This document shows, in pieces, positions 25,132 through 60,891 of a stretch of 64,000 bases of DNA. Numbering within the stretch: the stretch's first letter is position 1; the number at the start of each line of letters is the position of its first letter. The notes under the pieces were generated by a model that was not told the origin of the DNA, did no database searches, and saw only the letters and a program-made list of their open reading frames with translations. Position numbers and translations under genes: made by a program. Source of the stretch: a virus (lineage: Duplodnaviria; Caudoviricetes); IMG/VR virus record IMGVR_UViG_2651869698_000005, positions 26,138 to 90,137 of that record, one strand, 5' to 3'.

Positions 25132-25466
25132 GCTGCAACTTTCGGGGTTGTCTCGGTGGCAGCCGAGTAGTGGTTCTGGAAGGTTTCGTGGTCGCAGACG
25201 TACAGGCGACCGGATGGGCCTCGAACGAGCCAGTAGCCGTGTGGGACTCGGGTTCTGCGGCCGTCGAGGGGCACTTGCCAGTGGGCTGAGATTACCGCGT
25301 AGCCGAGGAGGAGGTCACGGCGATTGGGTTCGAGGCTGACGCCGTCGTCGTACCAGCCGCTGCCGCGGTCGAGGCCGAGGTCGCGGTTGATCTCGTAAGC
25401 GAACTGCCGGCCGAGCCGCACCGCGCGAACGGTGCGACTCGGGTCCAGGCTGAGGGTGTAGATCAC
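25128..25466 (-). CDS. Hypothetical protein
   Basis: Coupled ORF; GYWLVRGPSG...F...Y tail. Confidence 0.6.
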   Translation of the reverse strand: MIYTLSLDPSRTVRAVRLGRQFAYEINRDLGLDRGSGWYDDGVSLEPNRRDLLLGYAVISAHWQVPLDGRRTRVPHGYWLVRGPSGRLYVCDHETFQNHYSAATETTPKVAA

Positions 25467-26944
25467 AGCTGACGGGCGAGGGTGGTGCGTATGTCGTGGA
25501 ATGCCTGCGGGGCCAGGTTCTTTCCGTCCTGCCAGACCGGCTGCAGGATCGAACGTTCCATCGCCAGGGGGTTGGCGCGTTCGATCAGCTCGACGCCCAT
25601 CGCGGGGTCGGTCTCGATGACTGCGAGGCGGCCGGTGGCGGACTTCTTGAGCCCTGAGTCGGTGACGGGATCCTTCTGCAGGTTGTGGCCCTCGCCGTCG
25701 ACCTCGACGTACGTCGCTTTGACGGCCGAGCCGAACGTGTCGCGGGTGGTTCCCTGGTAGCTGTAGGAGCCGACGCCGAAGACGACGATGGTCGAGACGT
25801 AACCCATCTCCTCGAGGCGAGCGGTGATGGCTGCGGCGCGCTCGGGAAGGATCGAGTCGCCGTAGATCGCTCCGACCTTCTCGTTGAGCTCGAGGTATCC
25901 GGCATGGTTGACGGTAGACCCGAAGTGCTTGTCCAGCAGGCCGACTACGCCGTGCCACTGCGGGGTGCCGTACTCGGCGTCACGGTCGCCGCACAGGATG
26001 GTTTCGGGGTCGCCGGAGTCGGGGCGGATGACGAGCTTGCCGTCACGGGCGAGGATGCGATCCTTGAGCTGCGGGAGGATGTTGTCGAGCACGTTCCACA
26101 GATCCCACGTATCAGAGACCACCGACACGATGCCCGACGGATACAGGTCGAGCAGCCGGTTGAACGTTGCGAGCTCGCCGTCCTGCAGGCCTGCGCACAT
26201 GACGGAGTGCTCGGTGGCCGGCACGCCTGCGCCGACGAGGCCGTTGTCGCCGGGGTAGTAGCGGCGGATCCATTCGAGGGCGGGCAGGCTATCGGTGCCG
26301 AGGAACGAGGTCAGGTGCGCGGCACCGGACTTGGCGGCCGAGGCGGTGGAGGTCTGGCCGCGGTAGGAGAAGTCGTGCGCCTGGAAGTCGACGTCCTTGA
26401 TAGCTCCGCCGGTGTTGATGGCTGCGGCGTTGAGGATCCGGCGGTACTGCAGGGCGATCGTCGCCGAGGTGGCGGTATGCCAGTACTCGGCGGAGATGAC
26501 GGTCTCGACGTAGTTCACGAGCCAGAAGAACTCGGGGATGGTGTTCTCGATCGTGAACGAGGGGACGCGCAGCGGGAGCAGGGTGCCTTCGGGTGCGGAC
26601 TTGACGAGCAGCGGCAGGTAGCCGAGCTGGTGGAGGGCGCGGACGTGGTCGATGCCGATGGCTTCGGCGGCGTCGGGGCCGAGGTAGGCGGCGACGAAGT
26701 CGAAGTACAGGGCGGCGACTTCGTTTTCGTCGGCTGCGAAGAACGGCTCGAATGCCTCGACGAGGTAGGTCTGCAGGGCGGCCTGCAATCCGAAGTGGAC
26801 GACGTGGTCGATGCCAGGGATCCTCGAGGAGCGGTTGGTGTAGTTGCTGTAGACGAGGGTGGTGCCGGCGGGGTACTGGCGGCGGTGGTCGAGCTTGTAG
26901 CCGTCGGTGTTGAGCAGGGCGGCGATCGGGGATGCTGTGGTCAC
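25463..26944 (-). CDS. Nicotinamide phosphoribosyltransferase-like protein (probable Namat of NARP1)
   Basis: TDGYKLDH, HDFSYRG, ATEHS, SVVSDT, IRPDSG, IYGDSI, KKSATG. Confidence 0.9.
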   Translation of the reverse strand: MTTASPIAALLNTDGYKLDHRRQYPAGTTLVYSNYTNRSSRIPGIDHVVHFGLQAALQTYLVEAFEPFFAADENEVAALYFDFVAAYLGPDAAEAIGIDHVRALHQLGYLPLLVKSAPEGTLLPLRVPSFTIENTIPEFFWLVNYVETVISAEYWHTATSATIALQYRRILNAAAINTGGAIKDVDFQAHDFSYRGQTSTASAAKSGAAHLTSFLGTDSLPALEWIRRYYPGDNGLVGAGVPATEHSVMCAGLQDGELATFNRLLDLYPSGIVSVVSDTWDLWNVLDNILPQLKDRILARDGKLVIRPDSGDPETILCGDRDAEYGTPQWHGVVGLLDKHFGSTVNHAGYLELNEKVGAIYGDSILPERAAAITARLEEMGYVSTIVVFGVGSYSYQGTTRDTFGSAVKATYVEVDGEGHNLQKDPVTDSGLKKSATGRLAVIETDPAMGVELIERANPLAMERSILQPVWQDGKNLAPQAFHDIRTTLARQL

Positions 26945-27804
26945 TGGCTGACTGCTTTCAGGAGGTAGGGCAGGGCGGGGATGACGGTGAGGTACGGCCG
27001 GGGCCAGGGTGCGAGGTGTTCGCCGTGGTAGGAGTCGGTGGTGAAGATCTCGCCGTAGTGCGCGTTCAGGGCGCGGAACTTCTCCCAGCTGCCGGAGAAG
27101 ATGCCGTGACTGACGAACAGGCCGAGCTGCTCGGGGTGGAGGTCGATCGCCTTGGCGAGGCCGACGAATGTCCCTCCGCCGTCGCAGATGTCGTCGACGA
27201 CGAGGTAGTTTCCCTCGGGATCGAGCTTCGGGCAGACGAACTCGGACAGCGCACCGGTGGCGGGGTCACGTCTCTTACCGGCCTGGATGAACGGCAGTTT
27301 GAGTGCGTGGGCGACGTGGGCTGCGCGGCGACGTGCTCCCTTGTCGGGGGCGATGATTCCGGTGTACTGCAGCTCGGCGTAGTTGGTGGCGGCGTCGACG
27401 GCGATCTCGGTGGAGGGGATCTCGACGACGTTGTTGGTGCAGAACGGGCCGACGTCGGAGTGCGGGTCGAGGCAGATGACCTCGTCGGCGTTGATGAGGT
27501 TGATCAGGTCGGCGTAGATCTCGGCACCCCACGGGAATCCGCGGTCCTGGCGGGCACCGGGCAGGTACGGGACGATGGCGGTGACCGGATGCTCTCGGCC
27601 GCGCTGCACTGAGGCCCACATCGCAGCTGCCATGTAATCGTTGGCGTTGGTACCTCGGATGACGACGACGCGACGATGGCCGGCAGGAGCGCTGTCAGCG
27701 CCTTCTTTGACGTGCTCCTCGCCGGCGGGGAACTGCATCCGCTGATCGTCGGACTGGGTGACGGTTCCGTCGTCAGGGTTGAGGGTGTAGAACTCGACGC
27801 TCAC
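26941..27804 (-). CDS. Ribose-phosphate pyrophosphokinase-like protein (probable Adps of NARP1)
   Basis: FPAGE, PYLPGARQDR, DPHS, PDKGA, VDDICDGGGTF. Confidence 0.88.
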   Translation of the reverse strand: MSVEFYTLNPDDGTVTQSDDQRMQFPAGEEHVKEGADSAPAGHRRVVVIRGTNANDYMAAAMWASVQRGREHPVTAIVPYLPGARQDRGFPWGAEIYADLINLINADEVICLDPHSDVGPFCTNNVVEIPSTEIAVDAATNYAELQYTGIIAPDKGARRRAAHVAHALKLPFIQAGKRRDPATGALSEFVCPKLDPEGNYLVVDDICDGGGTFVGLAKAIDLHPEQLGLFVSHGIFSGSWEKFRALNAHYGEIFTTDSYHGEHLAPWPRPYLTVIPALPYLLKAVSQ

Positions 27805-27940
27805 GCTGCCACCCGCTCGATCGACTCGGCGGCGGGGGCCTGCTCGGCTTCGATGCGCCGGGTGACGCGGGCGAGCTGCTCGGCCGGCGACGGGATCGGG
27901 TTACGGTCGAGGTAGTCAGGGCGATCGCCCATGCGCAGTC

Positions 27941-28267: not shown

Positions 28268-29523
28268 GCCGCCACCAGCGCTTCTGCGGTCTCAGTGTCG
28301 ATGATGTCGGCGTCGAGCTGCTTGGTCTCGAACTGGAAGAACAGCGGCGACTTCGCCTTGAAGATCTGCGGGGTCAGGCCCTCGACGCGGACGCATACGC
28401 CTTCGTCGACGATGGGGTTCTTCTTGGTGCCCTCCTCGAGGGGAACGGCCAGGAACGGCAGGGTCTCGCTGAGCCGCTTGTCCATGTAGGACTCGATCTC
28501 GATGAAGTCGTGCCGGCCGCGGTACAGGGCAGGGACTGTTTCGATGCCGACCTCGGCGCAGAACTCGACCATCTGATCCCACGACAGGTCGGTGGCGCGT
28601 CCCTTCGTGGTGACCTGGACGACCCGGTAGACGTACAGGTCGGATGCGCCGATCGGCAGCCGGTAGGTGTACCCCTTCTGCACGGGCTTGCCGTCGGGGT
28701 GCCAGCCGATGATCTCGCCGTAGACGATGAATCCGGCGGGGATGCGGCCGCGGAGGCGCTCACCCCACTGGGTCCAGATGTCGTCGTCGGTCAGCTGCTT
28801 CTGTCGGCCACGGGAGGCGGAGACGTAGTCGTACTCGGTGTCCTGGACCTTGACGCCGAGGCGCTTGGCGATGCGGTCGCGCAGGGTCAGGGGGCGGGGA
28901 ACGATGGTGTGGGCGAGGCGAATCGAGGTTCCGTGGAGCTTCTGGGTGACGACGATGTTCTCGAACGGGGAGATCTGATCCTTGCAGCGGAAGTACTGCG
29001 GGGTGTCGAAGTGGCGGGGCAGGAACTTGGCGTCGGTGCGCTCGGCGGGCATCTGGCCGTTGCGGCCGGCGCTGGGGGCCTTGTAGTTCGACGGGTAGTA
29101 CTTGCGGCAGATCGGGTGGCCGTTGATGGTGTCGAAGGTGTCGCCGACCTGCAGCTCGGTGGGGTCGATGCCGGTGTACAGCAGGCTCGACAGGGGCATC
29201 AGGAGGGCGTCGGAGCGGTTGCCGCGGAGCTTGATGGCTCGGACGCGGCGGTTGTCCTCGAGGTAGCCCGTTACGTTCTGGTCCGCGTTCAGTTCCGCAT
29301 GGCGGTACATGTCGTTGGTGGAGGCGAAGTCGTGGTCGAGCTGGGCCTCGGCGGGGATGAACAGGGCGAGGTGTCCGGTCTGGAACACGTTCTTGCTGCT
29401 GATGATCTGGTAGCCGAACATCGGTATGGCAGCGAGGAAGTCGCTGTTCGGGAGGTCGAGGATGGTGTTGATCTGGACTACGACGGCTGCGTAGTTCTCG
29501 TTTTCGGGTGCGGTGAGTTTCAT
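28264..29523 (-). CDS. ATP-dependent RNA ligase with N-terminal OB/tRNA-binding-like domain
   Basis: Motif I QKLHGT, YGE, EGVCVR, FKAKS; N-terminal VRAIKLRG. Confidence 0.85.
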   Translation of the reverse strand: MKLTAPENENYAAVVVQINTILDLPNSDFLAAIPMFGYQIISSKNVFQTGHLALFIPAEAQLDHDFASTNDMYRHAELNADQNVTGYLEDNRRVRAIKLRGNRSDALLMPLSSLLYTGIDPTELQVGDTFDTINGHPICRKYYPSNYKAPSAGRNGQMPAERTDAKFLPRHFDTPQYFRCKDQISPFENIVVTQKLHGTSIRLAHTIVPRPLTLRDRIAKRLGVKVQDTEYDYVSASRGRQKQLTDDDIWTQWGERLRGRIPAGFIVYGEIIGWHPDGKPVQKGYTYRLPIGASDLYVYRVVQVTTKGRATDLSWDQMVEFCAEVGIETVPALYRGRHDFIEIESYMDKRLSETLPFLAVPLEEGTKKNPIVDEGVCVRVEGLTPQIFKAKSPLFFQFETKQLDADIIDTETAEALVAA

Positions 29524-29564
29524 GGTTTCCCTTGGTCGTTTGGCAGAACGTCCTACGGGTGAAC

Positions 29565-29593
29565 ATGTTACGCGAAACAGGGTGCGTAACAAA
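29565..29593 (-). promoter_or_regulatory. Early promoter with operator GTTACGCGAAAC
   Basis: -10 TAACAT; operator at 29567-29578; flanking long inverted repeat. Confidence 0.6.
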
Positions 29594-29811
29594 CAGCGGG
29601 GGTCTGTTCTGTTACGCACCCTGTGGGTATTACGGTGTCCCGCCGGCCTGCATTCGGGCTACGAACTGCAGCCAGTTCTCGCCGGGGGCGGGGCCTTCCT
29701 CGGTTGCGGGGGTCTGCCGGTAGCCGTCGATGACGGGCGGCCGGGGGATCCATTCGCGGGCGCTCTGCCGGATGGCGCGCCTGCGCCGCCAGGCTGCGAC
29801 GGGTCCGCGTC

Positions 29812-37182: not shown

Positions 37183-37802
37183 GCGGCGACCTTCTCTGCG
37201 AGTTTGGCTGCGCGAGCGAGCTTTCGGACGCATCGGGTGCAGTTGCCGGCCGCCTCGTGGATGACGTGGCCGTCGATGGGGTTGGAGCGTCGGGTCATCG
37301 GCTCATGGCAGGTGATGCACTCGTCGGGGACGATGGTCCGCACCGACGGGTTGAGGGTGCCTCCTCGGCGCGCTTTGGTGTAGCAGCCGTGGCAGAGGAC
37401 GTTTGCGCGGGTGGGTGCGCGGTGAGCGGTGTTGGTGCCGAGGACGATTGGCTCGTCGTCGGGGACGAAGATGCGCTCGCAGTCGGTGCAGGCTCCGTCG
37501 TCGGCGATGTACGGCTCGGGTTCGATGCCGGGGTTGACGATCTGGTTGAGGCGGTAGTAGGTGTCGATGTCGCCTCGGCAGATCTCGCCGGCTGCGATGA
37601 CGCCGGATGCGACGCGGGTGCGGGTCTGGCCGGTCCCTGTGCCGGCTGCGAGGGCATCTCGGGCGCAGTCGAGGAATGCGGCTGCGGGACAGGCGTTTCG
37701 GCACTGCGCTTGGGCCCATCGGGTCGCTGGCAGGCGATCCCAGTTCGGGTCTTCTCCTGGTTGGAGCCAGGAGTTCGGGTTTGTTGTGCAGGGTGCGGTC
37801 AC
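37179..37802 (-). CDS. WhiB-like protein with extra Zn-finger motifs
   Basis: PC...AQCRNAC...C...GVIAAG, then CTDC, CHGC, CITC, CTRC. Confidence 0.65.
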   Translation of the reverse strand: MTAPCTTNPNSWLQPGEDPNWDRLPATRWAQAQCRNACPAAAFLDCARDALAAGTGTGQTRTRVASGVIAAGEICRGDIDTYYRLNQIVNPGIEPEPYIADDGACTDCERIFVPDDEPIVLGTNTAHRAPTRANVLCHGCYTKARRGGTLNPSVRTIVPDECITCHEPMTRRSNPIDGHVIHEAAGNCTRCVRKLARAAKLAEKVAA

Positions 37803-37851
37803 AGGGTTCGTGGGCCTTCTTGGCAGAGGGGCGGTTCCGGCTTGCAGAACG

Positions 37852-45821: not shown

Positions 45822-46220
45822 TCAGGCGGCCGCCTTTGCGTACTGCTCGGCTGCGAGGAGGGCGGCTGCGAGCGCGAGGGGGCTGTCGCCCTGGGTGATG
45901 TTCCAGTAGCTCTGCGAGCCGTAGCTGACGGTGCCGTAGCTGACGCGGACGGCCGGCAGGCCGGGGTCGGGCTCGAAGTAGGCGAGCTCCTCGCTGACGA
46001 CGTGCGACGGTTCAGACAGAGCGACGGAGATCTCATTCGCCTTCGGCAGGAGGTCGACCAGGGCGTCAACGATCAGTGTCGCTGTGCGGTAGACGGTTTC
46101 GCGGTAGTCGACCGAGTAGTCCTCGAGCGGGAGCGTCGGGTTGTCGTGGCTGCGCTGAGTTTCGTCGTGGAGTGCTTCGGCGGCGCGATTGATGGCGGCC
46201 GCGTACGTTTCGGGATCCAT
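45822..46220 (-). CDS. Hypothetical protein
   Basis: Preceded by the CUGCCA hairpin and CCCGAAAG. Confidence 0.65.
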   Translation of the reverse strand: MDPETYAAAINRAAEALHDETQRSHDNPTLPLEDYSVDYRETVYRTATLIVDALVDLLPKANEISVALSEPSHVVSEELAYFEPDPGLPAVRVSYGTVSYGSQSYWNITQGDSPLALAAALLAAEQYAKAAA

Positions 46221-46264
46221 GATCTTCTTTCGGGTAGATGCCCTGGCAGGGGCGATGCGATCGG

Positions 46265-46561
46265 TCAGGAGGAGGCGAAGCCGAAGAACAGCCACTGGCC
46301 GCCCTCGACGGCGATAGCGCCGGCCGGGCCCCACTTGTCGCTGATCCGGTCGTCGTCGTTGGCGATGAGTTCCTCGGCGAGGTCGGCCGCGTCGGAGGAG
46401 GTGAGCGGCGGGGTCGGGATGACGATGAAGTCGTCCTTCTCGGCGAGAGTGCCGGTGTAGCCGCCGTGGCCGTACTGGTGCAGCGCCGATGCCTTCGCAG
46501 CCTCGAATGCCTCGCGTGAGGTCTTGCCGGCTGCGATGGAGGAGAAGTCTGTTGCGCCCAT
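46265..46561 (-). CDS. Hypothetical phage protein
   Basis: MGATDF...YGHGGYTGTLAEK...DKWGPA...FGFASS. Confidence 0.7.
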   Translation of the reverse strand: MGATDFSSIAAGKTSREAFEAAKASALHQYGHGGYTGTLAEKDDFIVIPTPPLTSSDAADLAEELIANDDDRISDKWGPAGAIAVEGGQWLFFGFASS

Positions 46562-46599
46562 GATCGGCGTCCTTTCGGGTGGGTGAGCCCTGGCAGGGG

Positions 46600-46827
46600 C
46601 TAGAGGGAGGCGTGGATCGCTTCGGCCGCGTGCGGGGCCAGCAGGGCAGCGAGAGCGCCTGATGTCGAGCCCGTATGGACGGCGTCGAGCTGGTCCTGTG
46701 TGACTCGGACCTCGCCGCCGCACTTGCAGTCGATCAGATAGCCGTCACCACCCTCGAGGAGTTCGAGGGAGGTGACGCCATCGACGACGTGATCGGCGAG
46801 CATGGCGGCGAGATCGGAGACGTTCAT
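46600..46827 (-). CDS. Hypothetical protein
   Basis: H...CKCG...H; preceded by the hairpin motif. Confidence 0.6.
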   Translation of the reverse strand: MNVSDLAAMLADHVVDGVTSLELLEGGDGYLIDCKCGGEVRVTQDQLDAVHTGSTSGALAALLAPHAAEAIHASL

Positions 46828-46876
46828 GGTGGACCTTTCGGGGTGGGCCACCCTGGCAGGGGCGGCTTCTTCCATC

Positions 46877-48808: not shown

Positions 48809-49161
48809 GCGGCACGCTCGACGGACTCGGGCGCGGCGACCCACTCGGTGACGCGGCGGATGACGTGGGTGACGTCGGGGTTGGACTTCCAGCGGGCCAT
48901 GTCGCGGGCGTCGGTGGGGACGACGCGGCCGTCGGGCCAGAGCAATCCGTGCTCGAGGCCGTGGGTGGGGAAGTGAACGGCGGTGCCATGATCGTCGACG
49001 TCGGCGGGCTGGCCGTCAGTGTGCTGCGCGAGGAGCAGCTCGAGGGCTTCGGCGCTGTTGTACAGGTGCGCGGCTCCGCGGGTCTGGCCGTTGAGATTGG
49101 CGCGGTCGGCCTGCTCGGTCCAGCGGTGGATCAGGGCCGCGAGGGCGTCTCGGAGGTTCAT
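48805..49161 (-). CDS. Hypothetical protein
   Basis: Preceded by the hairpin motif and RBS. Confidence 0.6.
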   Translation of the reverse strand: MNLRDALAALIHRWTEQADRANLNGQTRGAAHLYNSAEALELLLAQHTDGQPADVDDHGTAVHFPTHGLEHGLLWPDGRVVPTDARDMARWKSNPDVTHVIRRVTEWVAAPESVERAA

Positions 49162-49199
49162 CGGGTGGTCCTTTCGGGGCGGCTGGCAGGCCGAGGTGT

Positions 49200-49945: not shown

Positions 49946-50389
49946 TCAGAACGGGGGCGGGCTTGCGGGCGCGGATCCCCACGGGTCGTTCTGCGGCTGG
50001 TTCTGCTGGCGGTTGTTACCGGCCGCGGTGTTGCTGCGGCCTGCCTTCTGCGGGCGGGCGGTGGCGAAGCGGAGCGATGCGCCGATCTCGTCGATCTCGA
50101 TCTCGAGCGAGTAGCGGGTCTGGCCCTCCTTCTCGTACGGGCGGTTCTTCACGCGGCCGAGGATGACGACCTGGTCGCCCTTCTTGAGTGATTCGCCGAT
50201 GTTCTCGGCGAGCTGACGCCATGCGTTTGCCCGATACCAAGTGGTGTCGCCGTCCTTCCATCCTTCGCCGTCCCTGACGCGCTCGGTGACTGCGACGGAC
50301 ATGTTGACCACTGCGAGGCCCTGCGGGGTGAAGCGGAGCTCGGGGTCGCCGCCGAGGGTTCCGACGATCTGGGCTACTGCCTGTGACAT
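49946..50389 (-). CDS. ssb: Single-stranded DNA-binding protein
   Basis: DPELRFTP, WRQLAEN, IGASLRFA, C-terminal PPF. Confidence 0.95.
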   Translation of the reverse strand: MSQAVAQIVGTLGGDPELRFTPQGLAVVNMSVAVTERVRDGEGWKDGDTTWYRANAWRQLAENIGESLKKGDQVVILGRVKNRPYEKEGQTRYSLEIEIDEIGASLRFATARPQKAGRSNTAAGNNRQQNQPQNDPWGSAPASPPPF

Positions 50390-50425
50390 GGTGATGCCTT
50401 TCGGGGTTTGCGTTGCGGGAGTGTG

Positions 50426-50710
50426 TTATTCGGACGGGGAGCTGGCAGGCTCCCATGCTTCGAGGATCGCCTTGAGCTGGTCGAGCTTGTCGCGGCGGTA
50501 GTCCTTCCAGTGCATGTCACCTGCGACGGTGACGGGGGTGCCGCTGTAGCCGAGTTCACGGACTCGGGCTGCGCCGTTGGGATCTTCCCTGATGTCGACC
50601 TTGACGAACGGGATGCCCTCCTTGTCGAGATGGCGGGCGGTGGCGATGCACGGGCCGCACCCACTCTGTGAATACAGGGTGACCTTCGGAGCATCAGGAT
50701 GGATCGTCAT
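50426..50710 (-). CDS. nrdH: NrdH-like glutaredoxin
   Basis: VTLYS..CGPC.AT; LGYSGTPV. Confidence 0.9.
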   Translation of the reverse strand: MTIHPDAPKVTLYSQSGCGPCIATARHLDKEGIPFVKVDIREDPNGAARVRELGYSGTPVTVAGDMHWKDYRRDKLDQLKAILEAWEPASSPSE

Positions 50711-51282: not shown

Positions 51283-51674
51283 GCTGCGAGAACTTCCTGA
51301 GTGGTTGTGCGCTCGGCGAGGTACTCGTCGAGCGCGGTTTCGGTGATGGTTACTTCGATGAGCGTGTCCTCGGCCCGTTCGGTGTTGTCGGGGTCGTGGA
51401 GCAGCTCGTCGAGGCGGGTGGCGAGGTCGTCGATGTCGCCGGTTTCCTCTTCGGCGATGCGGGTTTCGCTGTATTCGGGGCCCGATGCCGAGAAGTAGGA
51501 CCAGCCCATCAGGTCGAACTGTGCGCGGGTCCATTCGAGGTCGTAGTCGGGGCCGGGGAGGGCGTTTGCCGGCCGCGGCGAGTTGTCGATGTAGTACCGC
51601 AGCTCGCGGTCGATCGGGAGGCCGGCGGCGTGGATCTTCGCCTGCTGTTCGGGGGTGGGGATGCGGTAGGTCAT
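51279..51674 (-). CDS. Hypothetical acidic protein
   Basis: First gene after a promoter and the hairpin motif. Confidence 0.65.
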   Translation of the reverse strand: MTYRIPTPEQQAKIHAAGLPIDRELRYYIDNSPRPANALPGPDYDLEWTRAQFDLMGWSYFSASGPEYSETRIAEEETGDIDDLATRLDELLHDPDNTERAEDTLIEVTITETALDEYLAERTTTQEVLAA

Positions 51675-51725
51675 GTGACGCCTTTCGGAGGTGCCCTGGC
51701 AGGGGCGGCTTCGCGTACTTCCATC

Positions 51726-53087: not shown

Positions 53088-53426
53088 TCATGCCGCAGCC
53101 GCCAGAGGTGAGCGGTAGAGCACGGCCCACGCGGAGACGTCGAGCTCGACGAGGGTGCCGGGGTTGCGCGAGGGGTTGCTCAGCGCCGCGGTGATGGCGG
53201 GCAGCAGGTCGTGGAACTGGCCGAACAGGTAGTGGTCGGTGTTGCCGGCTTCGCCGTGGCCGTCGACGGTGATCTCGGTCCATTCGAGGCACCAGTCGGC
53301 GGGCTGGCCGTTGACGCAGCGATGGTCGAGCCAGCTGTCGTCACGGCTGACGTTGGCGATCAGCCCGTCGTGGTCTTCGATGCCGAGCTGGTCGAGGATC
53401 GCCTGGTCGGCGCGCGAGTGAATCAC
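53088..53426 (-). CDS. Hypothetical protein
   Basis: Preceded by the hairpin motif and RBS. Confidence 0.6.
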   Translation of the reverse strand: MIHSRADQAILDQLGIEDHDGLIANVSRDDSWLDHRCVNGQPADWCLEWTEITVDGHGEAGNTDHYLFGQFHDLLPAITAALSNPSRNPGTLVELDVSAWAVLYRSPLAAAA

Positions 53427-53475
53427 GGTGGTGTCCTTTCGGGGGGTGGGGCTGGCAGGCCCCGGTACGGCTGAA

Positions 53476-54628: not shown

Positions 54629-55243
54629 TCAGTTGGTGAAGACGTAGGTCTTGCCGCCGTATTCGCAGAAGCGGTAGCCCCAGGAGCCCTGCGCGTGCAT
54701 GATCAGCTCGTCGAGGTCGAGCTTGACGATGCAAGGGGCGGTGGTATGCCAGTCGACGTGCTCTTCGGGGGCGGGGGCGGTCTTCGCCCAGGCCCGCGCG
54801 GCGACCTGCATGAAGTCGTGCAGGGATTCGGTCGACTGCTCGGCCCAATCGCGGCGGCTGTCGTACTCGCCGACCAGCTTCTTCGGTTCGTAGTCGTCGA
54901 TGTCGGGATCGAACTCGTCGTTCAGCCAGGCGAGGAACGCGCCGCGGTGCTCGTTGATTGCTTCGGCGACAGCGACGACCTTCTCGATCTGCTCGTACTC
55001 GCTGACGGAGTATCCGCCGAAGTTGTCGTGGTCGTGGATGGCCCACTCTTCGGCGGGGCCGTACAGCCCGTGCGGGTCGTGCTCGGGTGAGGATTCGAGG
55101 ATCGCGGTGATCTTCTCGTGGATCTCGTCGGCGGTGATGCCGGCCTCGAGGGTGATCCATTCGCCGTGCAGAGTGCCGTTGTTGTAGGCGGCGAGGCAGG
55201 CGACGTAGATGCGAGGGGTGTCGGTGGAGACAGCTGTGCTCAC
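54629..55243 (-). CDS. ardA: Antirestriction protein ArdA
   Basis: IYVACLAAYNNGTLHGEWI, EEWAIHD; acidic. Confidence 0.9.
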   Translation of the reverse strand: MSTAVSTDTPRIYVACLAAYNNGTLHGEWITLEAGITADEIHEKITAILESSPEHDPHGLYGPAEEWAIHDHDNFGGYSVSEYEQIEKVVAVAEAINEHRGAFLAWLNDEFDPDIDDYEPKKLVGEYDSRRDWAEQSTESLHDFMQVAARAWAKTAPAPEEHVDWHTTAPCIVKLDLDELIMHAQGSWGYRFCEYGGKTYVFTN

Positions 55244-55299
55244 GGGGTGTCCTTCGGGGGTGTTCGCCCTGGCAGGGGCGGTGGTGACTGACTGAGATC

Positions 55300-55744: not shown

Positions 55745-55971
55745 GCCACCGCCTTGCCGGCGTAGGTGATGGCCGGGGCGACGATGGCATGTGCGGGAAC
55801 GATATTGGCGATCGGTACGTCGATCACGTCACCCGAGGTGGTGATGACCGCGGCGACGCGCTTGCCGTCGAGGTCGAGATCGTAGGCGATGACCTCGAGG
55901 ATCGGTGTCGGCGGTTCGATGCCGGCCGGATCGATGGCGAAGCTGCGCGTGTAGACGGGTGCTGTCTGCAT
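55741..55971 (-). CDS. Hypothetical protein
   Basis: Preceded by the hairpin motif and RBS. Confidence 0.6.
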   Translation of the reverse strand: MQTAPVYTRSFAIDPAGIEPPTPILEVIAYDLDLDGKRVAAVITTSGDVIDVPIANIVPAHAIVAPAITYAGKAVA

Positions 55972-56031
55972 GGCTGGTGTCCTTTCGGGTGCTAGCCCCG
56001 GTGGCAGCCGGGGTGCGAGGCGAGGGGTCGA

Positions 56032-56187: not shown

Positions 56188-56217
56188 AAGTTACGCGAAA
56201 CGGTGCGGAACTGGCAA
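56188..56217 (-). promoter_or_regulatory. Early promoter with operator
   Basis: TTGCCA-18-TAACTT; GTTACGCGAAAC at 56190-56201. Confidence 0.7.
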
Positions 56218-56347: not shown

Positions 56348-56863
56348 TCAGCCGAACGCGCGCTGAGGGCCGCTTGAGGCGCGATCCTGGCCGAGCAGAT
56401 CCTCTACGGCAGCTCGACCAGCGGCGATGTCGACCGGCCCAGCATCGGCGGGCCGATCCTCACGCGGCTGGCGGGCTTTGACTCGCGACCGGGGAGTGTC
56501 CCCGCGGGCGATCCGCCGCGCCTCGGTTTCCTCGCGGAGCCGAGCCACCACCTCGGCGCGATGCTCGGGCGACGATCCGCGGCCACGTAACGCCAGATGC
56601 TGCGAGACCGGTGCCGGGCCCGTACCGCCGGGGCGCATGACGCGGATCAGGTGCGTAACGTGCCCCGGTTCCAGCCACGGCCGGCGGGCGGTCGGTTCGA
56701 GCGGAGTTCCGAAGAAGCGATGCACCGCTGCGACAGCTGCCGGGAGCGTCCACCGTCGCTCACGGGCCTGGAATCCCCACGTCGCTTCGGCCTCGGGGGT
56801 GATCGGCCGGTTGTCGTAAGCGGCGATGACGGCGAGCAGCTGCAGCACCTGGACGTCGTTCAC
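56348..56863 (-). CDS. Replication-associated protein (helicase loader/inhibitor-like)
   Basis: LLAVIAAYDNR...W...AVHRFF...WLEPGHV; follows the initiator. Confidence 0.6.
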   Translation of the reverse strand: MNDVQVLQLLAVIAAYDNRPITPEAEATWGFQARERRWTLPAAVAAVHRFFGTPLEPTARRPWLEPGHVTHLIRVMRPGGTGPAPVSQHLALRGRGSSPEHRAEVVARLREETEARRIARGDTPRSRVKARQPREDRPADAGPVDIAAGRAAVEDLLGQDRASSGPQRAFG

Positions 56864-57969: not shown

Positions 57970-57970
57970 G

Positions 57971-58276
57971 TCAGGCGCTCCTCTCGGTCGATACGGGTTC
58001 GTGGTTGCGTTTGAGTTCGAGGCGCTCGCGGATCCGAGCGACGGTGTACAGGGTCAGCGCGGTGTGCTTCTCGATCTCTCGATCGGTCATGCCGTTGCGC
58101 ACCAGCAGCCGGATCAGCTGCGCGCGATCGACGGTCGTGAGCGCCTCGGCCGGCAGCTCGCCGTCGACGGCCAGCCGGAACGAGTTCGGATGGTCGGCGT
58201 ACAAACCGCGGGCGATGCGCTTGTCGGCACCGGTGAAGATAAGCGGAGGGCGGCTGTTGGTCGCCTCGTCGGTCAT
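57971..58276 (-). CDS. HTH protein
   Basis: GMTDREIEKHT...TVARIRERLEL. Confidence 0.65.
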   Translation of the reverse strand: MTDEATNSRPPLIFTGADKRIARGLYADHPNSFRLAVDGELPAEALTTVDRAQLIRLLVRNGMTDREIEKHTALTLYTVARIRERLELKRNHEPVSTERSA

Positions 58277-58476
58277 CGGATCGACTCGATGATCTCGCGG
58301 GCCGATCTGACCGCGTCGGCGTTCTCCTCGCAGAGGACGCGGACGCCGTGTGCGGCGCAGTACGGCTGGTCGGGCCAGCGGCCGGTGGTGTCGATGTACC
58401 GCATGACGGCGGTCGTTCCGCATTCGGAGAACAGATCCTGATAGCTGCAGGAGATGGAGTCGAGGCCGAGCTGCAT
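58273..58476 (-). CDS. Small Cys-containing protein
   Basis: C...CG...YCAAHG. Confidence 0.55.
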   Translation of the reverse strand: MQLGLDSISCSYQDLFSECGTTAVMRYIDTTGRWPDQPYCAAHGVRVLCEENADAVRSAREIIESIR

Positions 58477-58551
58477 CGGGGTGATCCTTTCGGGGGTGGA
58501 GCAGGAGAGGGGTCGTCAGCTGGCAGGCCGGCGACCCCTCCTCGAATCCTC

Positions 58552-59517
58552 TTACGCGGCGGCCGGTTCCGGCACTACCTCGGCGTCGACAGGGGCGGTC
58601 GCATCGGGCTCGGTACTCGCCACGCCGATGTCGAACGCGCGGGCCTTCGCCATCTCCATCACCGTCGCCGCGTTGGTGCCGGTCAGCGTCCGCTCTGCCT
58701 CGTAGTACAGGTCGAGGAGCCGGTCCTTGACCGTCTCCACCTCGATGCGCTTTGACAGCGACTCGACGAGATCTGCCTCGGTGTCCCCGCTCGGGGCTGC
58801 CGGCTGGCCGCCCTGCTGGTTCATCCGTGCGGCGAATCCGGCCGCGCCGCCCTGCTGCTTGGGCTGCTCGACGCGCTCGGAGGAGGCCTGCCGGGCCTGA
58901 CGGCGATCTCCGAGGTCGGTCACCGTCTGGCCGTCCTCGTCGACGACCTGGTTGTTCATCTCGTCGGTGGTGTAGATGCCCGACAGATCCTGCGGGTATG
59001 CCTTGCGGAGTGAGAGCGCTTCGGCGCACTTGGCGATCATCAGCGCGCCCTTGGTGTTCCACATCTGCGTGACCTGGCCGTTGCCCTTCTTGCCGACGTA
59101 TTCGTCCCACAGGGCGATCGCCGGGTACCGAGCGCCGTCACGGATGACGGTGACCTTTGCCGCGCGCGGCTTATCCTTGCTGAGCCAGACGTCGGTCCAC
59201 TTGCCATCCTCGCCGCACCACAGGGTGTCCTCGTAGCCGAGGGTGCCGTTCGAGCGGTCGGTGGCGCGGCGGGCGATCAGCCGGAATCCGTCGATGCCGG
59301 TCTGGATCGTCTGCTTGCCCTGGCGCTCGATCATGTAGATCTGCTTGGCGAACGGGTCGAGGCCGGTGCGCTGGCACTGGTGGAAGAACACGGCGAGGTC
59401 GCCGTTGGCGGCCTGGACGCCGAGCTGCGCGAGCGCCGCCTTCTGCTTCTCCGACCAGAAGTCCTGATCGTTGCCGATGACCAGCGCGGAGCCGGTGTGG
59501 AGTTCGAGAGATGTCAT
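58552..59517 (-). CDS. RecT/Bet-like single-strand annealing protein
   Basis: GLDPFAKQIY, QTGIDGFR, MIAKCAEALSLRKAYP. Confidence 0.92.
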   Translation of the reverse strand: MTSLELHTGSALVIGNDQDFWSEKQKAALAQLGVQAANGDLAVFFHQCQRTGLDPFAKQIYMIERQGKQTIQTGIDGFRLIARRATDRSNGTLGYEDTLWCGEDGKWTDVWLSKDKPRAAKVTVIRDGARYPAIALWDEYVGKKGNGQVTQMWNTKGALMIAKCAEALSLRKAYPQDLSGIYTTDEMNNQVVDEDGQTVTDLGDRRQARQASSERVEQPKQQGGAAGFAARMNQQGGQPAAPSGDTEADLVESLSKRIEVETVKDRLLDLYYEAERTLTGTNAATVMEMAKARAFDIGVASTEPDATAPVDAEVVPEPAAA

Positions 59518-60641
59518 GCTGCATTCCTTTCGGGGGTGGCGGTGGCAGCCGCCGTGAGTGCATCGGTGAGTGGGTTGTCGTGCAGGCCGAGTTCGTCGAT
59601 CCGCTGGGCGGCGAGACGCTCGGCACGGAGGGCGCGGAGCTGGGCGATGTCGACCGGCTTGGTGGGCTTCTTGAGCGTCGCCCCGCCGCCCTTGGTGCCG
59701 GTACGGGTGGCGATGATCAGCGGCTCGAGCTTCGGGCGCGGCTTGCCGGCCTTGGTGAACGTCTGGATCGCGTCGGGGATGATCGCCTGGCGGGCCTTGC
59801 CCATCACGCGGAACACGTCGGACTTCGCCTTGTTGAACCGACCTTCTGCCCGCTCGTACTCGGCAATCGACTCGGTGTATTCGATCGCCAGGTCCAGGTT
59901 GATCTCCCACTGCTCGCCGTCGCCGCGGTCGATCTCGGGGTTGACCTTGCGCAGCGCCTCGAACGTCTCGGCGCGGGTGTCGTTGACGGGCTCGATGTCG
60001 AGGATCAGCGACCGCATGAACGCGGCGACGCGGAACTCGACGTCGGCGAAGATCTGCTCGTCGTAGTGGACCCAGTAGGTTTCCTGGTCGTCGATCATCG
60101 GACCCGACTTGATGTACGCCGCGCGCACCAGGTTCGGGTAGGTGTACCGGCCGATCAGGATCTGCCAGATGCCCTGAGCGAGGTAGTCGTACGGGATCAC
60201 ATCGCTGCCGGGGTCGCCCCACTGGAAGTGGTCGGCCCACTGGCCGGTGGTCTTGCAGTCGATGACGATGATCTCGCCGGTCTCACGGTGACGGGCGACG
60301 CTGTCGGGGGTGGCAGCTGCCTCGTAGCCGAGATCGGGGCGGGTCATCAGAACCTCGCCGGCCGCTATCCGCTCCCATTCGGGGTGCTCGTCGAACCACT
60401 TCCGCAGGAATCCCTCCTCGAGGTAGTGCCCGCGGGACTGCACCTTGTTCGAGGTGCGGGGGAACTTGTCGGGGTGGCGCATCTTGAGCCACATCGACTT
60501 CTCGGAGTCGTGGGTGGACATGCCGATCATGGCCGCGACCTTCGAGGCCGTCGCGGTGCGGAGCCAGCCGCCAGCGCCGGGGGTCATGTCCTGATCGTCG
60601 GGGCAGGCGGCGGGCTCGGGCCGGGTCATCGTGTCGATCAC
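59514..60641 (-). CDS. RecE/YqaJ-like exonuclease
   Basis: TASKVAAMIG, RGHYLE, ATPD, DCKT, YLAQ..WQ. Confidence 0.85.
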   Translation of the reverse strand: MIDTMTRPEPAACPDDQDMTPGAGGWLRTATASKVAAMIGMSTHDSEKSMWLKMRHPDKFPRTSNKVQSRGHYLEEGFLRKWFDEHPEWERIAAGEVLMTRPDLGYEAAATPDSVARHRETGEIIVIDCKTTGQWADHFQWGDPGSDVIPYDYLAQGIWQILIGRYTYPNLVRAAYIKSGPMIDDQETYWVHYDEQIFADVEFRVAAFMRSLILDIEPVNDTRAETFEALRKVNPEIDRGDGEQWEINLDLAIEYTESIAEYERAEGRFNKAKSDVFRVMGKARQAIIPDAIQTFTKAGKPRPKLEPLIIATRTGTKGGGATLKKPTKPVDIAQLRALRAERLAAQRIDELGLHDNPLTDALTAAATATPERNAA

Positions 60642-60781
60642 AGCGACCACACCCAGGCGTAGAACAGGATCAGGACCGAGGCGACGGTGCCAGCGAGGGT
60701 GTAGATCCACTCGGCGAGGGTCGGCTGCGAATTGGTGGATGCGTCGACCGTGGTCGGCGTTGTATGATGAGCGGGCATCAT
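60638..60781 (-). CDS. Small membrane protein
   Basis: C-terminal TM helix; GGGAG RBS; start may lie further upstream. Confidence 0.5.
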   Translation of the reverse strand: MMPAHHTTPTTVDASTNSQPTLAEWIYTLAGTVASVLILFYAWVWSL

Positions 60782-60891
60782 GCTCCCTGCAAGGGGTGGC
60801 AACTTTCGGGTGTGATTACCGGCTTCGCGCAAAACCCTTGGCAGAGGGGCGGGGCCGGTTTTCTCGTTCTCGAGGTATCTCGTCGGCGCGC

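What the first reader, a model, noticed from the sequence alone, without database searches (positions are those of the whole stretch)
25152..60848. Dispersed RNA element: CUGCCA-loop hairpin plus CCCGAAAGG in front of about 15 early genes
Seen: on the transcribed (minus) strand an invariant CTGCCA hexaloop closes a stem whose sequence changes while pairing is kept. Plus-strand TGGCAG positions and stems: 25157 CTCGG/CCGAG; 29541 CGTT/AACG; 37821 (weak); 46244 and 51697 GCCC/GGGC; 46591 AGCCC/GGGCT; 46854 GCCGCCC/GGGTGGC; 49184 CGGC/GCCG; 50443 GGGAGC/GCTCCC; 53453 GGGGC/GCCCC; 55270 CGCCC/GGGCG; 56002 CCCCGG/CCGGGG; 58521 a ~14-bp stem; 59543 GGCGG/CCGCC; 60839 CCCT/AGGG. Most are followed by CCCGAAAG(G) and then a start codon, including RecT, SSB, ArdA, RNA ligase and the metallophosphoesterase. 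Several persist inside upstream coding sequence. I found none in the head genes. Inference: this covariation points to a site recognised as RNA, for example a regulon under a phage translational activator or repressor, an antitermination site or a processing site. CC-GAAA-GG could itself be a GNRA mini-hairpin over the Shine-Dalgarno sequence. I do not recognise the motif as described.
Basis: partly seen in the sequence, partly recalled or inferred. Interest (0 to 1): 0.9.

Follow-up and report, generated by a model that had tools for sequence, protein, structure and literature searches.

The report
CUGCCA-loop RNA hairpin tag on prophage early genes
A temperate actinobacterial phage and one distant relative put the same tiny RNA hairpin, with a variable stem and a loop that always reads CUGCCA, just ahead of the ribosome-binding site of about fifteen early genes, which points to one undescribed factor controlling these genes together.

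Summary
On the sense (minus) strand, CTGCCA is closed by at least 4 Watson-Crick pairs 13 times, against 0.11 expected in shuffles. No other hexaloop recurs more than 3 times.

With G-U pairs counted, 16 copies lie in the window. One more lies on the + strand in the + strand left arm, so every copy is co-oriented with transcription. Fourteen copies sit 17-56 nt upstream of a start codon, after a C/A-rich spacer and a GAAAGG-type Shine-Dalgarno. The genes include RecT, ArdA, SSB, RNA ligase and the metallophosphoesterase.

An 84.5-kb provirus (G001, portal 78% identical) carries 11 copies at syntenic genes whose proteins are only 42-78% identical. The loop is unchanged in 27 of 27 copies and the stems covary.

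I found no Rfam match, no copies in VanLee or in other collections, and no paper. My best reading (0.4) is an RNA operator read by one unknown trans-acting factor that controls translation of an early-gene regulon. The main rival is a processing or stability punctuation element.

The function is untested. This scan has noted analogous start-linked hairpins with other loops in unrelated phages, but none on this DNA's relatives.

The parts
60779..60848 (-). Unit 1. Hairpin 60835-60848 (CCCT/AGGG, loop CUGCCA), 27-nt spacer, CCCGAAAG at 60803-60810, candidate ATG at 60781. It is the first copy after the early HTH_17 (Cro/Xis-like) gene 60892-61131. The downstream gene is uncertain: a small membrane ORF or the 85-aa ORF 60638-60895.
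   Evidence: ortholog in G001 at 81482 with the same stem
59515..59553 (-). Unit 2. Hairpin 59538-59553 (GGCGG/CCGCC), SD 59526-59531, ATG 59517 of RecT. The hairpin lies inside the 3' end of the YqaJ-type exonuclease gene 59514-60710.
   Evidence: CM 27.7 bits
58474..58541 (-). Unit 3. Core hairpin 58517-58530 (CGGC/GCUG), extended to a helix of about 14 bp at 58506-58541. SD 58486-58491, ATG 58476 of a 67-aa gene.
55969..56013 (-). Unit 4. Hairpin 55996-56013 (CCCCGG/CCGGGG), SD 55981-55986, ATG 55971 of a 76-aa gene.
   Evidence: G001 ortholog 76178
55241..55280 (-). Unit 5. Hairpin 55265-55280 (CGCCC/GGGCG), SD variant GAAGG 55251-55255, GTG 55243 of ArdA. It lies downstream of a promoter-like TAAGCT. 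In run X4 a contig joins this hairpin to another gene's leader.
53424..53463 (-). Unit 6. Hairpin 53448-53463 (GGGGC/GCCCC), SD 53435-53440, GTG 53426 of a 112-aa gene. It lies 12 nt downstream of a TTGCTG-17-TAATCT promoter-like site with GTTACGCG/CGCGTAAC dyads.
   Evidence: G001 ortholog 75415
51672..51706 (-). Unit 7. Hairpin 51693-51706 (GCCC/GGGC), SD 51681-51686, ATG 51674 of a 131-aa gene. It lies downstream of TTGCTG-17-TAACAT.
   Evidence: G001 ortholog 73823
50387..50454 (-). Unit 8. Hairpin 50437-50454 (GGGAGC/GCUCCC) inside the 3' end of the glutaredoxin gene. A 34-nt C/A-rich spacer follows, then SD 50397-50402 and ATG 50389 of SSB.
   Evidence: G001 ortholog 72851 has a G-C to G-U change and the same long spacer
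49159..49193 (-). Unit 9. Hairpin 49180-49193 (CGGC/GCCG), SD 49170-49175, ATG 49161 of a 118-aa gene.
   Evidence: G001 ortholog 71566 has stem GUGGC/GCCGC
46825..46866 (-). Unit 10. Hairpin 46847-46866 (GCCGCCC/GGGUGGC, one G-U), SD 46834-46839, ATG 46827 of a 75-aa gene. It lies downstream of TTGCCA-18-TAACCT with an operator dyad.
46559..46601 (-). Unit 11. Hairpin 46586-46601 (AGCCC/GGGCU; the upstream stop codon TAG lies in the stem), SD 46571-46576, ATG 46561 of a 98-aa gene.
46218..46253 (-). Unit 12. Hairpin 46240-46253 (GCCC/GGGC), SD GAAAG 46227-46231, ATG 46220 of a 132-aa gene.
   Evidence: G001 ortholog 67176
37724..37737 (-). Uncertain member. Hairpin TCGC/GCGA with the CUGCCA loop, 22.3 bits. 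No SD or start follows, and it lies inside the predicted 207-aa gene 37179-37802.
37819..37828 (-). It has only 2 pairs and scores 12.8 bits, so it is probably not a member. It lies downstream of a TTGACG...CATACT promoter-like site.
29521..29550 (-). Unit 13. Hairpin 29537-29550 (CGUU/AACG), SD variant GGGAAA 29526-29531, ATG 29523 of the RNA ligase. It lies downstream of a TAACAT promoter-like site with a GCGTAAC/GTTACGC dyad.
   Evidence: G001 copy 50401 has stem GCGUU/AACGU
25129..25167 (-). Unit 14. Hairpin 25152-25167 (CUCGG/CCGAG), SD GAAAG 25139-25143, ATG 25131 of the metallophosphoesterase.
   Evidence: In the MFE fold of this leader an alternative pairing with UGCAG at the start codon wins.

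Best explanation
The element is a cis-acting RNA tag in the leader of early and middle mRNAs of a temperate actinobacterial phage. It is a 4-7 bp hairpin of free sequence that presents an invariant CUGCCA hexaloop. In most copies a 1-9 nt C/A-rich, G-poor spacer follows, then the Shine-Dalgarno GAAAGG(A) and the start codon.

I propose that one sequence-specific trans-acting factor reads the loop. The factor is most likely a protein, encoded by the phage or the host. Bound at the 5' edge of the ribosome-binding site, it would set translation initiation of all tagged genes together. These genes cover recombination, SSB, anti-restriction, RNA repair and many small early genes. The effect is most probably repression or shut-off, as T4 RegA does for its early mRNAs and as ThrRS does from a hairpin just upstream of the thrS SD.

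Shown:
- the hairpin family is real;
- it lies only on the sense strand;
- its stems covary;
- it has a fixed position relative to SD and start;
- it is restricted to non-structural genes;
- it is conserved in a diverged relative.

Inferred:
- it acts as RNA;
- a trans-acting factor binds the loop;
- the effect is on translation.
For: 1. The family is non-random and discrete. There are 13 copies with at least 4 Watson-Crick pairs against 0.11 in shuffles, and the loop ranks first of all hexaloops. The whole genome and G001 give the same result, 13 vs 0.15 and 8 vs 0.12. Covariance model seeds score 18-28 bits and the next hit 16.7, with no loop variants.

2. Strand. All copies are co-oriented with transcription. 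This includes the single + strand copy at genome 2665, in front of a + strand gene.

3. Structure under selection. Of the inner four pairs, 103 of 108 cells are Watson-Crick and 4 are G-U, with 4-5 pair types at each position. The covariation score is 0.73 against 0.18 shuffled (0 of 500 shuffles reach it) and at most 0.22 when the partner is slid.

4. Position. Across 25 units in G000 and G001 the spacer to the SD is 1-9 nt in 18. The distance from loop end to start codon is 17-35 nt in 20 of 24. The spacer is 58% C, 24% A and 9% G. In the early block 45.8-61 kb, 9 of 12 uncoupled gene junctions carry the hairpin. No copy precedes a structural gene.

5. Conservation. G001 (portal 78% aa identity) has 11 copies. 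Seven are at syntenic orthologs whose proteins are 42-78% identical. The upstream DNA has diverged, while the loop and SD are kept and the stems are partly changed: CGGC/GCCG to GUGGC/GCCGC, and G-C to G-U at the SSB site.

6. Precedent. T4 RegA represses about 30 early mRNAs at their initiation regions, and RegB cuts early mRNAs in their SD (PMC3014915, passages read).
Against: - No candidate reader was found. Pfam on 47 different G000 proteins gave DNA-binding, recombination, replication and anti-defence domains and many blanks, but no RNA-binding domain.
- Seven of 25 units have spacers of 15-34 nt. At SSB and at the first early copy the long spacer is conserved in G001. There the hairpin lies outside a normal 30S footprint, which fits steric repression poorly.
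- About half the copies lie 4-13 nt downstream of the expected start of promoter-like sites. That would also suit a co-transcriptional or stability role.
- Two promoter-proximal leaders carry a G+C hairpin with a different tetraloop (AGAA or AGAU) in the same position. Part of the job may therefore need only a hairpin.
- The leaders as a whole do not fold better than shuffles, with z from -2.0 to +0.7.
- I selected members partly by pairing, so the percentage paired is inflated. The shuffle test is the fair one.
- No expression data exist. No RNA run was listed.
Confidence: 0.4

Rival explanations
1. Processing or stability punctuation. The hairpin marks where the long early transcripts are cut by a loop-specific endoribonuclease. 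Alternatively it serves as a protective 5' hairpin, so that each tagged cistron becomes a stable mRNA with a short leader.
For: - The hairpins sit at junctions between blocks of coupled genes, in 9 of 12 junctions of the early block.
- Several lie inside the 3' end of the upstream gene. That is harmless for a 5' protector.
- Variable spacers of up to 34 nt are tolerated.
- Gordonia phage VanLee, among the nearest sequenced phages by portal (55%), has at the same position in front of its small right-arm genes 12 tRNA-like elements. Each has a 4-8 bp T-arm-like stem (7-8 bp in 9 of 12), a TTCGAYT loop and acceptor-like flanks. Some give sub-threshold mascRNA matches, and ARAGORN calls one a tRNA. 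They are followed by a second hairpin and GAAAGGA, which looks like RNase P-type punctuation.
- T7 RNase III sites are the classical precedent (recalled, not from a call).
Against: - A passive protector does not need six invariant loop bases.
- A hairpin as 3' protector is excluded where it lies upstream of the stop codon, at 59543 and 50443.
- A cut inside the loop would destroy the hairpin.
- No nuclease candidate was found.
- In promoter-proximal copies the hairpin starts 4-13 nt from the likely 5' end, not at it.
Confidence: 0.25
2. The loop pairs with a trans-acting RNA by a kissing interaction. The partner would be a host sRNA or a tRNA anticodon loop. UGCCA is complementary to the U33-GGC-A37 loop of an Ala tRNA; this is recalled tRNA numbering and was not tested.
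For: - Six-base loops suit kissing complexes.
- Earlier notes of this scan report 'mirror' RNAs for start-site tags in other phages (e1-6205128, e1-6022478). These are unchecked AI notes and serve only as leads.
Against: - No mirror exists in the phage. The only stem-flanked UGGCAG on sense transcripts is one copy inside a head-region gene at window 3590, and it is absent from G001.
- Paired UGGCAG at 19551 and 19563 is coding sequence.
- The one hairpin loop with CCCUUUCGG, at genome 13225-13262, is coding and is not kept in G001.
- Host RNAs could not be examined.
Confidence: 0.1
3. Processive antitermination site, boxB-like. The nascent hairpin loads a phage factor onto RNA polymerase so that it reads through terminators of the early operons.
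For: - The size resembles boxB, with a 4-7 bp stem and a small invariant loop.
- At least 7 copies follow promoter-like sites closely.
- A 15-bp G+C hairpin without a T run lies inside the early block at about 49894-49929 and could act as a terminator.
Against: - There are sixteen copies per genome, about half with no promoter nearby.
- No conserved boxA-like block lies beside the hairpin; alignment columns outside the stem are not conserved.
- The tight link to SD and start codon is not needed for antitermination.
- No N-like protein was recognised.
Confidence: 0.08
4. A DNA-level site. It would be either a stoperator- or operator-like binding site for a DNA-binding protein, or a single-stranded DNA hairpin used in replication or recombination at gene-cassette boundaries.
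For: - The sites are asymmetric, in one orientation relative to transcription and in short intergenic spaces, which is the pattern of L5 stoperators (named in PMC3203893).
- One contig of run X4 joins the ArdA hairpin to the leader of the gene that follows the genome-2665 copy. The hairpins can therefore be recombination junctions.
Against: - Only 6 bp are fixed, and CTGCCA occurs 82 times in the genome. What marks the real sites is flanking complementarity of free sequence, which a duplex-DNA reader cannot use.
- Stems of 4 bp with a 6-nt loop will not extrude from duplex DNA.
- Operator dyads of two other kinds already occupy the promoters.
- A junction at a shared 30-40 nt leader is expected from ordinary homologous recombination.
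Confidence: 0.07
5. A passive structural insulator. The local hairpin only keeps the C-rich leader and SD from pairing with neighbouring G-rich RNA, and the loop is shared only because the units are copies of one another.
For: - Two leaders use a different tetraloop hairpin in the same place.
- The spacers are G-poor and unstructured.
Against: - If shared descent explained the loop, the stems would be shared too. Instead the stems differ at every position while the loop is identical in 27 of 27 copies and across two phages with 42-78% protein identity.
Confidence: 0.05

Closest known systems
[quoted passage not shown] 2011, PMC3203893, passages read; PMC12699233, 2025, passages read)
   Same: - A dispersed tag of 11-19 copies per actinophage genome.
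- One orientation, restricted to the non-structural half.
- Placed at translation initiation sites, with an inverted repeat just upstream of an extended RBS in about half the cases.
- Conserved gene by gene among relatives.
- Function still unknown in 2025.
   Different: - SAS is a fixed 13-mer (GGGATAGGAGCCC). It is absent here: 2 matches at up to 2 mismatches against 1.75 expected.
- ESAS arms are 17 bp and conserved in sequence with a variable spacer, and the authors found that departures do not support RNA pairing, so they favoured a DNA-binding protein.
- Here the reverse holds: the arms are free in sequence and compensatory, and the loop is fixed.
Phage T4 early-mRNA control by RegA (translational repressor) and RegB (endonuclease cutting GGAG in the SD) (PMC3014915, passages read)
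   Same: - One phage factor acts on the initiation regions of many early mRNAs and spares late ones.
- This is the regulon logic I propose.
   Different: - RegA sites are A+U-rich, unstructured and overlap the AUG.
- RegB recognises the SD itself.
- There is no hairpin with a fixed loop, and no RegA or RegB homolog was seen here. These families were not searched by name; Pfam scans of 47 different proteins named neither family.
Lambda-type nut boxB hairpins and coat-protein operators of RNA phages (MS2, PP7); recalled, no call
   Same: - A small hairpin in which the stem sequence is free and the loop is read base-specifically by a protein.
- Operators at or beside the ribosome-binding site (coat proteins; the thrS operator).
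   Different: - boxB has a 5-nt GNRA-like loop, occurs once or twice per genome and comes with boxA.
- Coat-protein operators are single sites that include the start codon.
- Here there are 16 copies, a 6-nt non-GNRA loop, and the site lies upstream of the SD.
Stoperators of mycobacteriophage L5 and Cluster A (mentioned in PMC3203893; details recalled)
   Same: - Many asymmetric sites in short intergenic spaces.
- All oriented with transcription in both arms.
   Different: - Stoperators are 13-bp conserved duplex-DNA sites bound by the repressor.
- Here only 6 bases are conserved and the flanks covary as a helix.

Membership tests
Any Rfam family | Score at or above the family's gathering threshold | tested here: not met
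   The gathering scan of the whole window found only 5 tRNAs. The E-value scan of 44000-61000 gave 2 sub-threshold matches on the + strand, away from the hairpins.
Cluster K SAS | 13-bp GGGATAGGAGCCC (up to 2 mismatches) at the RBS of many non-structural genes | tested here: not met
   2 matches in the window against 1.75 expected, neither at a tagged gene. The tag here is (C)CCGAAAGG.
Cluster K ESAS | Two 17-bp inverted repeats conserved in sequence, with a variable spacer and no compensatory changes | tested here: not met
   The arms are 4-7 bp, are not conserved in sequence and are compensatory, and the 6-nt spacer is invariant. The definition comes from PMC3203893.
Lambda-type nut site (boxA + boxB) | A conserved boxA block next to the hairpin, a 5-nt GNRA-like loop, and one or two promoter-proximal copies | tested here: not met
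   No conserved columns outside the stem. The loop is 6 nt, CUGCCA. There are 16 copies, about half without a promoter-like site. The family features are recalled.
L5-type stoperator | One orientation relative to transcription in both arms | tested here: met
   All copies lie on the sense strand, including genome 2665 on the + strand.
L5-type stoperator | A conserved asymmetric duplex site of about 13 bp | tested here: not met
   Only 6 invariant bases, with flanks that covary as a helix.
Intrinsic terminator | A G+C-rich stem followed by a T/U run | tested here: not met
   None of the 7 terminator-like sites in 44000-62000 coincides with a CTGCCA hairpin. The hairpins are followed by C/A-rich spacers with 9% T.
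Translational operator of an RNA-binding repressor (T4 gp43 / RegA, thrS, coat-protein type) | The site overlaps or abuts the ribosome-binding site | tested here: met
   The spacer to the SD is 1-9 nt in 18 of 25 units. It is 15-34 nt in the other 7.
Translational operator of an RNA-binding repressor (T4 gp43 / RegA, thrS, coat-protein type) | A cognate protein binds the site and lowers translation | not testable with these tools
   No candidate protein was identified. This needs pull-down and reporter assays.
tRNA anticodon-arm mimic (thrS-operator type) | A 7-nt loop with U33, an anticodon triplet and purine 37 on a 5-bp stem | tested here: inconclusive
   CU-GCC-A fits positions 32-37 of that pattern (recalled rule). 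However, the loop is 6 nt in 27 of 27 copies because the flanking bases always pair. No Gly or Ala(GGC) tRNA was on hand to compare.

The most novel reading that the evidence does not exclude
The tag is an anticodon-arm look-alike. CU-GCC-A reads like positions 32-37 of a Gly(GCC)-type anticodon loop, and UGCCA is also the complement of an Ala(GGC) anticodon loop. Through it the phage would hook the translation of its whole early gene set to a tRNA-binding host protein (a synthetase, or a modification or cleavage enzyme) or to a tRNA itself. That would be a phage-wide version of the thrS operator or of a T-box specifier loop, sensing the state of the host's translation or of a tRNA-targeting defence.
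Probability: 0.07. Interest if true: 0.9.

Novelty: new variant of a known kind. Interest (0 to 1): 0.62.

Why it matters
If one factor reads these loops, a temperate phage of mycolic-acid actinobacteria controls recombination, SSB, anti-restriction (ArdA), RNA repair and many orphan early genes after transcription, through a 14-20 nt RNA tag.

That would be the first structurally defined counterpart of T4 RegA/RegB-type early-gene control in actinophages. It would also offer a tractable model for the long-unexplained start-associated sequences of mycobacteriophages.

The tag is small, portable and has a clear mutational design: loop change, stem break, compensatory restoration. The question is therefore directly testable. 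The tag and its reader could also become an orthogonal translational switch for Mycobacteriales.

The contrast with VanLee, which has tRNA-like elements in the same place, suggests that related phages punctuate early operons with different RNA devices.

Tried and rejected
1. CC-GAAA-GG as a GNRA mini-hairpin: rejected.

2. A pseudoknot between the loop (CUGC) and GCAG at the start codon. GCAG lies within -12..+18 in 6 of 14 tagged G000 genes against 29 of 120 others, but in 0 of 9 tagged G001 genes. It wins the fold only at 25157 and 60839. Rejected as a general feature.

3. A phage-encoded 'mirror' RNA, a lead taken from earlier notes: no conserved mirror was found.

4. Loop variants: none recur.

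5. Wider distribution of the element.
- IMG/VR, strict pattern: 0 hits.
- IMG/VR, third pattern: 9 loci, of which only the two from G001 are real; three other records were searched whole and each holds a single copy.
- GTDB genomes: 22 single hits in unrelated phyla, none actinobacterial.
The only multi-copy cases are paralogous leaders of a 16-aa peptide gene (L331, L307) and an L345/L231 pair of another kind.
- 23 loci with RecT relatives: no family.
- VanLee: no family; 1 antisense model hit.
- G002 (portal 45%): no recurrent loop.
- The 131-aa tagged protein: no relative in IMG/VR. It has 3 cluster hits in the protein collection, whose DNA I could not fetch.

6. RNA evidence: no RNA holder was listed. 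DNA contigs of X2, X3, X4 and X6 were laid. Most differences were not printed (2043 rows hidden), so I make no claim about loop conservation in those runs.

8. The E. coli-consensus promoter scan found 0 sites. The promoter-like sites I cite were read by eye.

9. Literature. 'CTGCCA' + phage + stem-loop gave 1 irrelevant paper. Broader actinophage terms gave nothing relevant among the 12 listed. A search on tRNA-like / RNase P / phage terms gave nothing on VanLee-type elements among the 5 listed. Supplements were not opened; Pope 2011 Figures S3-S4 and the 2025 paper's tables might hold related motifs.

Full report
WHAT THE DNA IS. The window is bases 26138-90137 of a 90,137-bp IMG/VR provirus record that is 99% complete. 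G+C is about 65%. An integrase (62648-64000, minus strand) and a divergent HTH plus IrrE/M78 pair (61395-62563, + strand) form the immunity end.

From about 61200 everything is read leftwards on the minus strand:
- an HTH_17 Cro/Xis-like gene;
- a YqaJ-type exonuclease and RecT;
- ArdA, a C5-methylase, an HNH gene, glutaredoxin, SSB and a helicase;
- many orphan genes;
- RNA ligase, a Prs-like and Nampt-like pair, and a metallophosphoesterase;
- a deazaguanine block, tRNAs, terminase, portal, head and tail genes.

A short left arm (genome 900-4500) is read rightwards. The nearest sequenced phages by portal protein are Gordonia phages VanLee, Cafasso, Aleemily, ObLaDi and Morgana, at 54-55% amino-acid identity. 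The host is therefore probably a member of the Mycobacteriales, though it is not named by any search.

THE OBSERVATION. Read on the minus strand, CTGCCA occurs 34 times. It is closed by at least 4 Watson-Crick pairs in 13 cases, by at least 4 pairs with G-U allowed in 15, and by at least 3 pairs in 17. On the other strand 1 of 31 has at least 4 Watson-Crick pairs.

In 300 dinucleotide-preserving shuffles the mean is 0.11 and the maximum 2. Among all 389 hexaloops closed by at least 4 pairs, CTGCCA has 13 members and the runner-up has 3.

In the whole genome one further full unit lies on the + strand at 2665, in front of the + strand DUF2786 gene. A stem-flanked copy at genome 4342 (minus strand, no SD, antisense to a + strand gene) and one at window 3590 (+ strand, antisense) look like chance. 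A better hairpin at 37728 has no SD behind it, so I list it as uncertain.

ANATOMY. The stem is 4-7 bp, and about 14 bp with interruptions at 58521. The closing pair is C-G 17 times, G-C 5, U-A 4 and A-U once across 27 copies. Across 25 units from both phages:
- the distance from the hairpin to the SD is 1-9 nt in 18 and 15-34 nt in 7;
- the spacer is 58% C, 24% A, 9% G and 9% T;
- the distance from the end of the loop to the start codon is 17-35 nt in 20 of 24 and 44-56 nt in 4.

The SD is GAAAGG(A), usually preceded by CC or CCC. That tag is not private to hairpin genes. Of 23 CCGAAAG sites followed by an ORF, 12 have the hairpin and 11 do not.

By eye, at least seven copies (53453, 51697, 46854, 29541, 55270, 37821 and genome 2665) follow a -10-like TAAnnT/CATACT by 10-20 nt. 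Four of them also have a TTGCTG-type -35 and GCGTAAC/GTTACGC dyads. These agree with operators noted by other readers of this genome. The E. coli-consensus scan finds none of them.

The other copies lie between cistrons or inside the last codons of the upstream gene, for example 59543, 50443 and 46591. In the early block, 9 of 12 junctions that are not translationally coupled carry the hairpin. My gene calls come from a crude GC3-based caller, so these counts are approximate. No copy precedes a structural or lysis gene.

IS IT STRUCTURE? In an ungapped alignment of 27 copies the six loop columns are invariant and nothing else is. The four inner pairs are Watson-Crick in 103 of 108 cells, G-U in 4 and C-A in 1, with 4-5 different pair types at each position.

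The covariation score is 0.73, against 0.18 in column shuffles (0 of 500 as high) and at most 0.22 when the 3' partner is slid by one to three columns. I chose members partly by pairing, so these percentages are inflated. The unbiased statistic is the shuffle test above.

RNAfold keeps the hairpin in 12 of 14 leaders. The leaders as a whole are no more stable than shuffles, with z from -2.0 to +0.7. The evidence is therefore recurrence and compensation, not energy.

RELATIVES. Close relatives are scarce.
- DNA search of phage records found only a RecT fragment.
- A portal search of IMG/VR found G001, an 84,516-bp provirus with 78% portal identity and 61% G+C.
- G001 has 11 sense-strand CTGCCA hairpins with at least 3 pairs. 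Eight have at least 4 Watson-Crick pairs, against 0.12 expected and 0 on the other strand.
- They lie only in its non-structural half and are followed by (C)CGAAAGGA and a start codon.
- Seven lie in front of syntenic orthologs of tagged G000 genes whose proteins share 42-78% identity. In pairwise alignments the upstream DNA has drifted, while the loop and SD stand out. Some stems have changed with pairing kept: CGGC/GCCG against GUGGC/GCCGC, a G-C to G-U change at SSB, and GGCGG/CCGCC against GCGG/CCGC.
- The unusually long SSB and first-gene spacers are also conserved.
- A covariance model built from the 27 copies separates seeds (18-28 bits) from everything else (16.7 or less) in G000, G001 and the VanLee stretch held (bases 35000-84560), apart from a single 22-bit antisense hit in VanLee.
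- VanLee, G002 (portal 45%), 23 RecT-relative loci and the pattern scans of IMG/VR, GTDB genomes and metagenomes gave no further family.
- Three isolate-type sequencing runs hold relatives about 90-95% identical over 44-61 kb.
- In one of these runs (X4) a contig follows the ArdA hairpin's upstream side and then continues with the exact 30-nt leader that follows the genome-2665 copy. The shared tags can therefore be crossover points between gene modules.

WHAT IT IS NOT. It is none of the following:
- An Rfam family.
- The Cluster K SAS 13-mer.
- An ESAS, whose arms are conserved and non-compensatory according to its authors.
- A terminator, because no T run follows.
- A typical boxA-boxB nut site.
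- A duplex-DNA operator. A duplex reader could not tell the 17 stem-flanked CTGCCA from the other 65 in the genome.

A loop-to-start-codon pseudoknot and a phage-encoded mirror RNA were tested and dropped.

HOW IT MOST LIKELY WORKS. The combination of a free stem, a fixed loop, sense strand only, a position abutting the ribosome-binding site and an early-gene-only distribution is the signature of an RNA operator read by one sequence-specific factor. The geometry matches repressors that bind a hairpin at the 5' edge of the ribosome-binding site (thrS; recalled). The regulon logic matches T4 RegA and RegB.

I put 0.4 on translational control by such a factor. I put about 0.8 on the weaker statement that this is an RNA element read by some trans-acting factor.

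The main rival (0.25) is processing or stability punctuation. Three things favour it:
- the junction positions;
- tolerance of long spacers;
- VanLee's tRNA-like elements at the same place.

Against my best reading stand three things:
- the absence of any candidate reader;
- the 7 long-spacer units;
- two leaders that use a different tetraloop hairpin in the same position.

NOVELTY. Nothing in Rfam or in the searched literature describes this motif. The published kin in kind is SAS/ESAS, whose function was still unknown in 2025.

Earlier notes of this scan describe start-linked hairpins with other invariant loops in unrelated phages and nothing on look-alike DNA. I therefore file it as a new variant of a known kind, meaning dispersed start-associated tags and RNA operators of phage early genes. 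The family is real and conserved, and its mechanism is open but directly testable.

Noticed in passing
L141 (Gordonia phage VanLee NC_073474.1, locus 37184-45576, minus strand): Twelve intergenic tRNA-like elements lie in front of small right-arm genes. Each has a 4-8 bp stem (7-8 bp in 9 of 12) with a T-loop-like TTCGAYT loop, flanked by acceptor-like GCCCYG...YRGGGC. Often a second hairpin follows, then GGCACCCAAC-GAAAGGA and the start codon. ARAGORN calls one of them a 91-nt 'tRNA-Val', and three places (two at these elements) give sub-threshold mascRNA-menRNA matches (E 0.05-0.7). This looks like RNase P-type punctuation of an early operon. I found no paper on it among the 5 listed.
   Followed up: partly
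window 53470-53526, 51712-51760, 46869-46910, 29556-29640, about 37830-37900; genome 2600-2660: Sigma-A-like promoters (TTGCTG/TTGCCA, 17-18 nt, TAACAT/TAATCT/TAACCT) carry GCGTAAC/GTTACGC dyads. They lie 10-20 nt upstream of several hairpins. I read them by eye, and the E. coli-consensus scan misses them. They agree with earlier notes e1-6228511 and e1-6228507.
   Followed up: partly
genome 1590-1610 (+ strand); window about 56163-56176 (minus strand): A second, rarer leader hairpin lies in the same position as the CUGCCA one. It has a 5-bp G+C stem with an AGAA or AGAU tetraloop (GGCCC-AGAA-GGGCC; GCGGG-AGAU-CCCGC), followed by a C-rich spacer, GAAAGG and ATG.
   Followed up: no
window about 49894-49929 (minus strand): A 15-bp G+C hairpin with loop CAUCGC and no T run lies 6 nt upstream of the SD of the 82-aa gene 49627-49875. 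It could be a U-tract-less terminator or another leader structure inside the early block.
   Followed up: no
window 55266 (run X4): A contig of a related genome keeps the upstream side and loop of the ArdA hairpin. It then continues with the 30-nt leader and start of the DUF2786 gene, which in this genome follows the copy at genome 2665. This is a module junction exactly at the tag.
   Followed up: partly
L331 (1226, 3537, 4910, + strand) and L307 (392, 1784, minus strand), one soil-type metagenome: Five near-identical leaders carry a UCCC-CUGCCA-GGGA hairpin about 20 nt upstream of GAAAGGAG and a 16-aa ORF (VKIKSNVKAGQGLWGA). They are paralogous copies of a small-peptide gene in unrelated DNA of 57% G+C. 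The same loop occurs here, but the copies are not independent.
   Followed up: partly
window 25463-27804: The adjacent genes give Pfam NAPRTase plus NAMPT_N, and weak Pribosyltran hits below the curated cut-off.
   Followed up: partly
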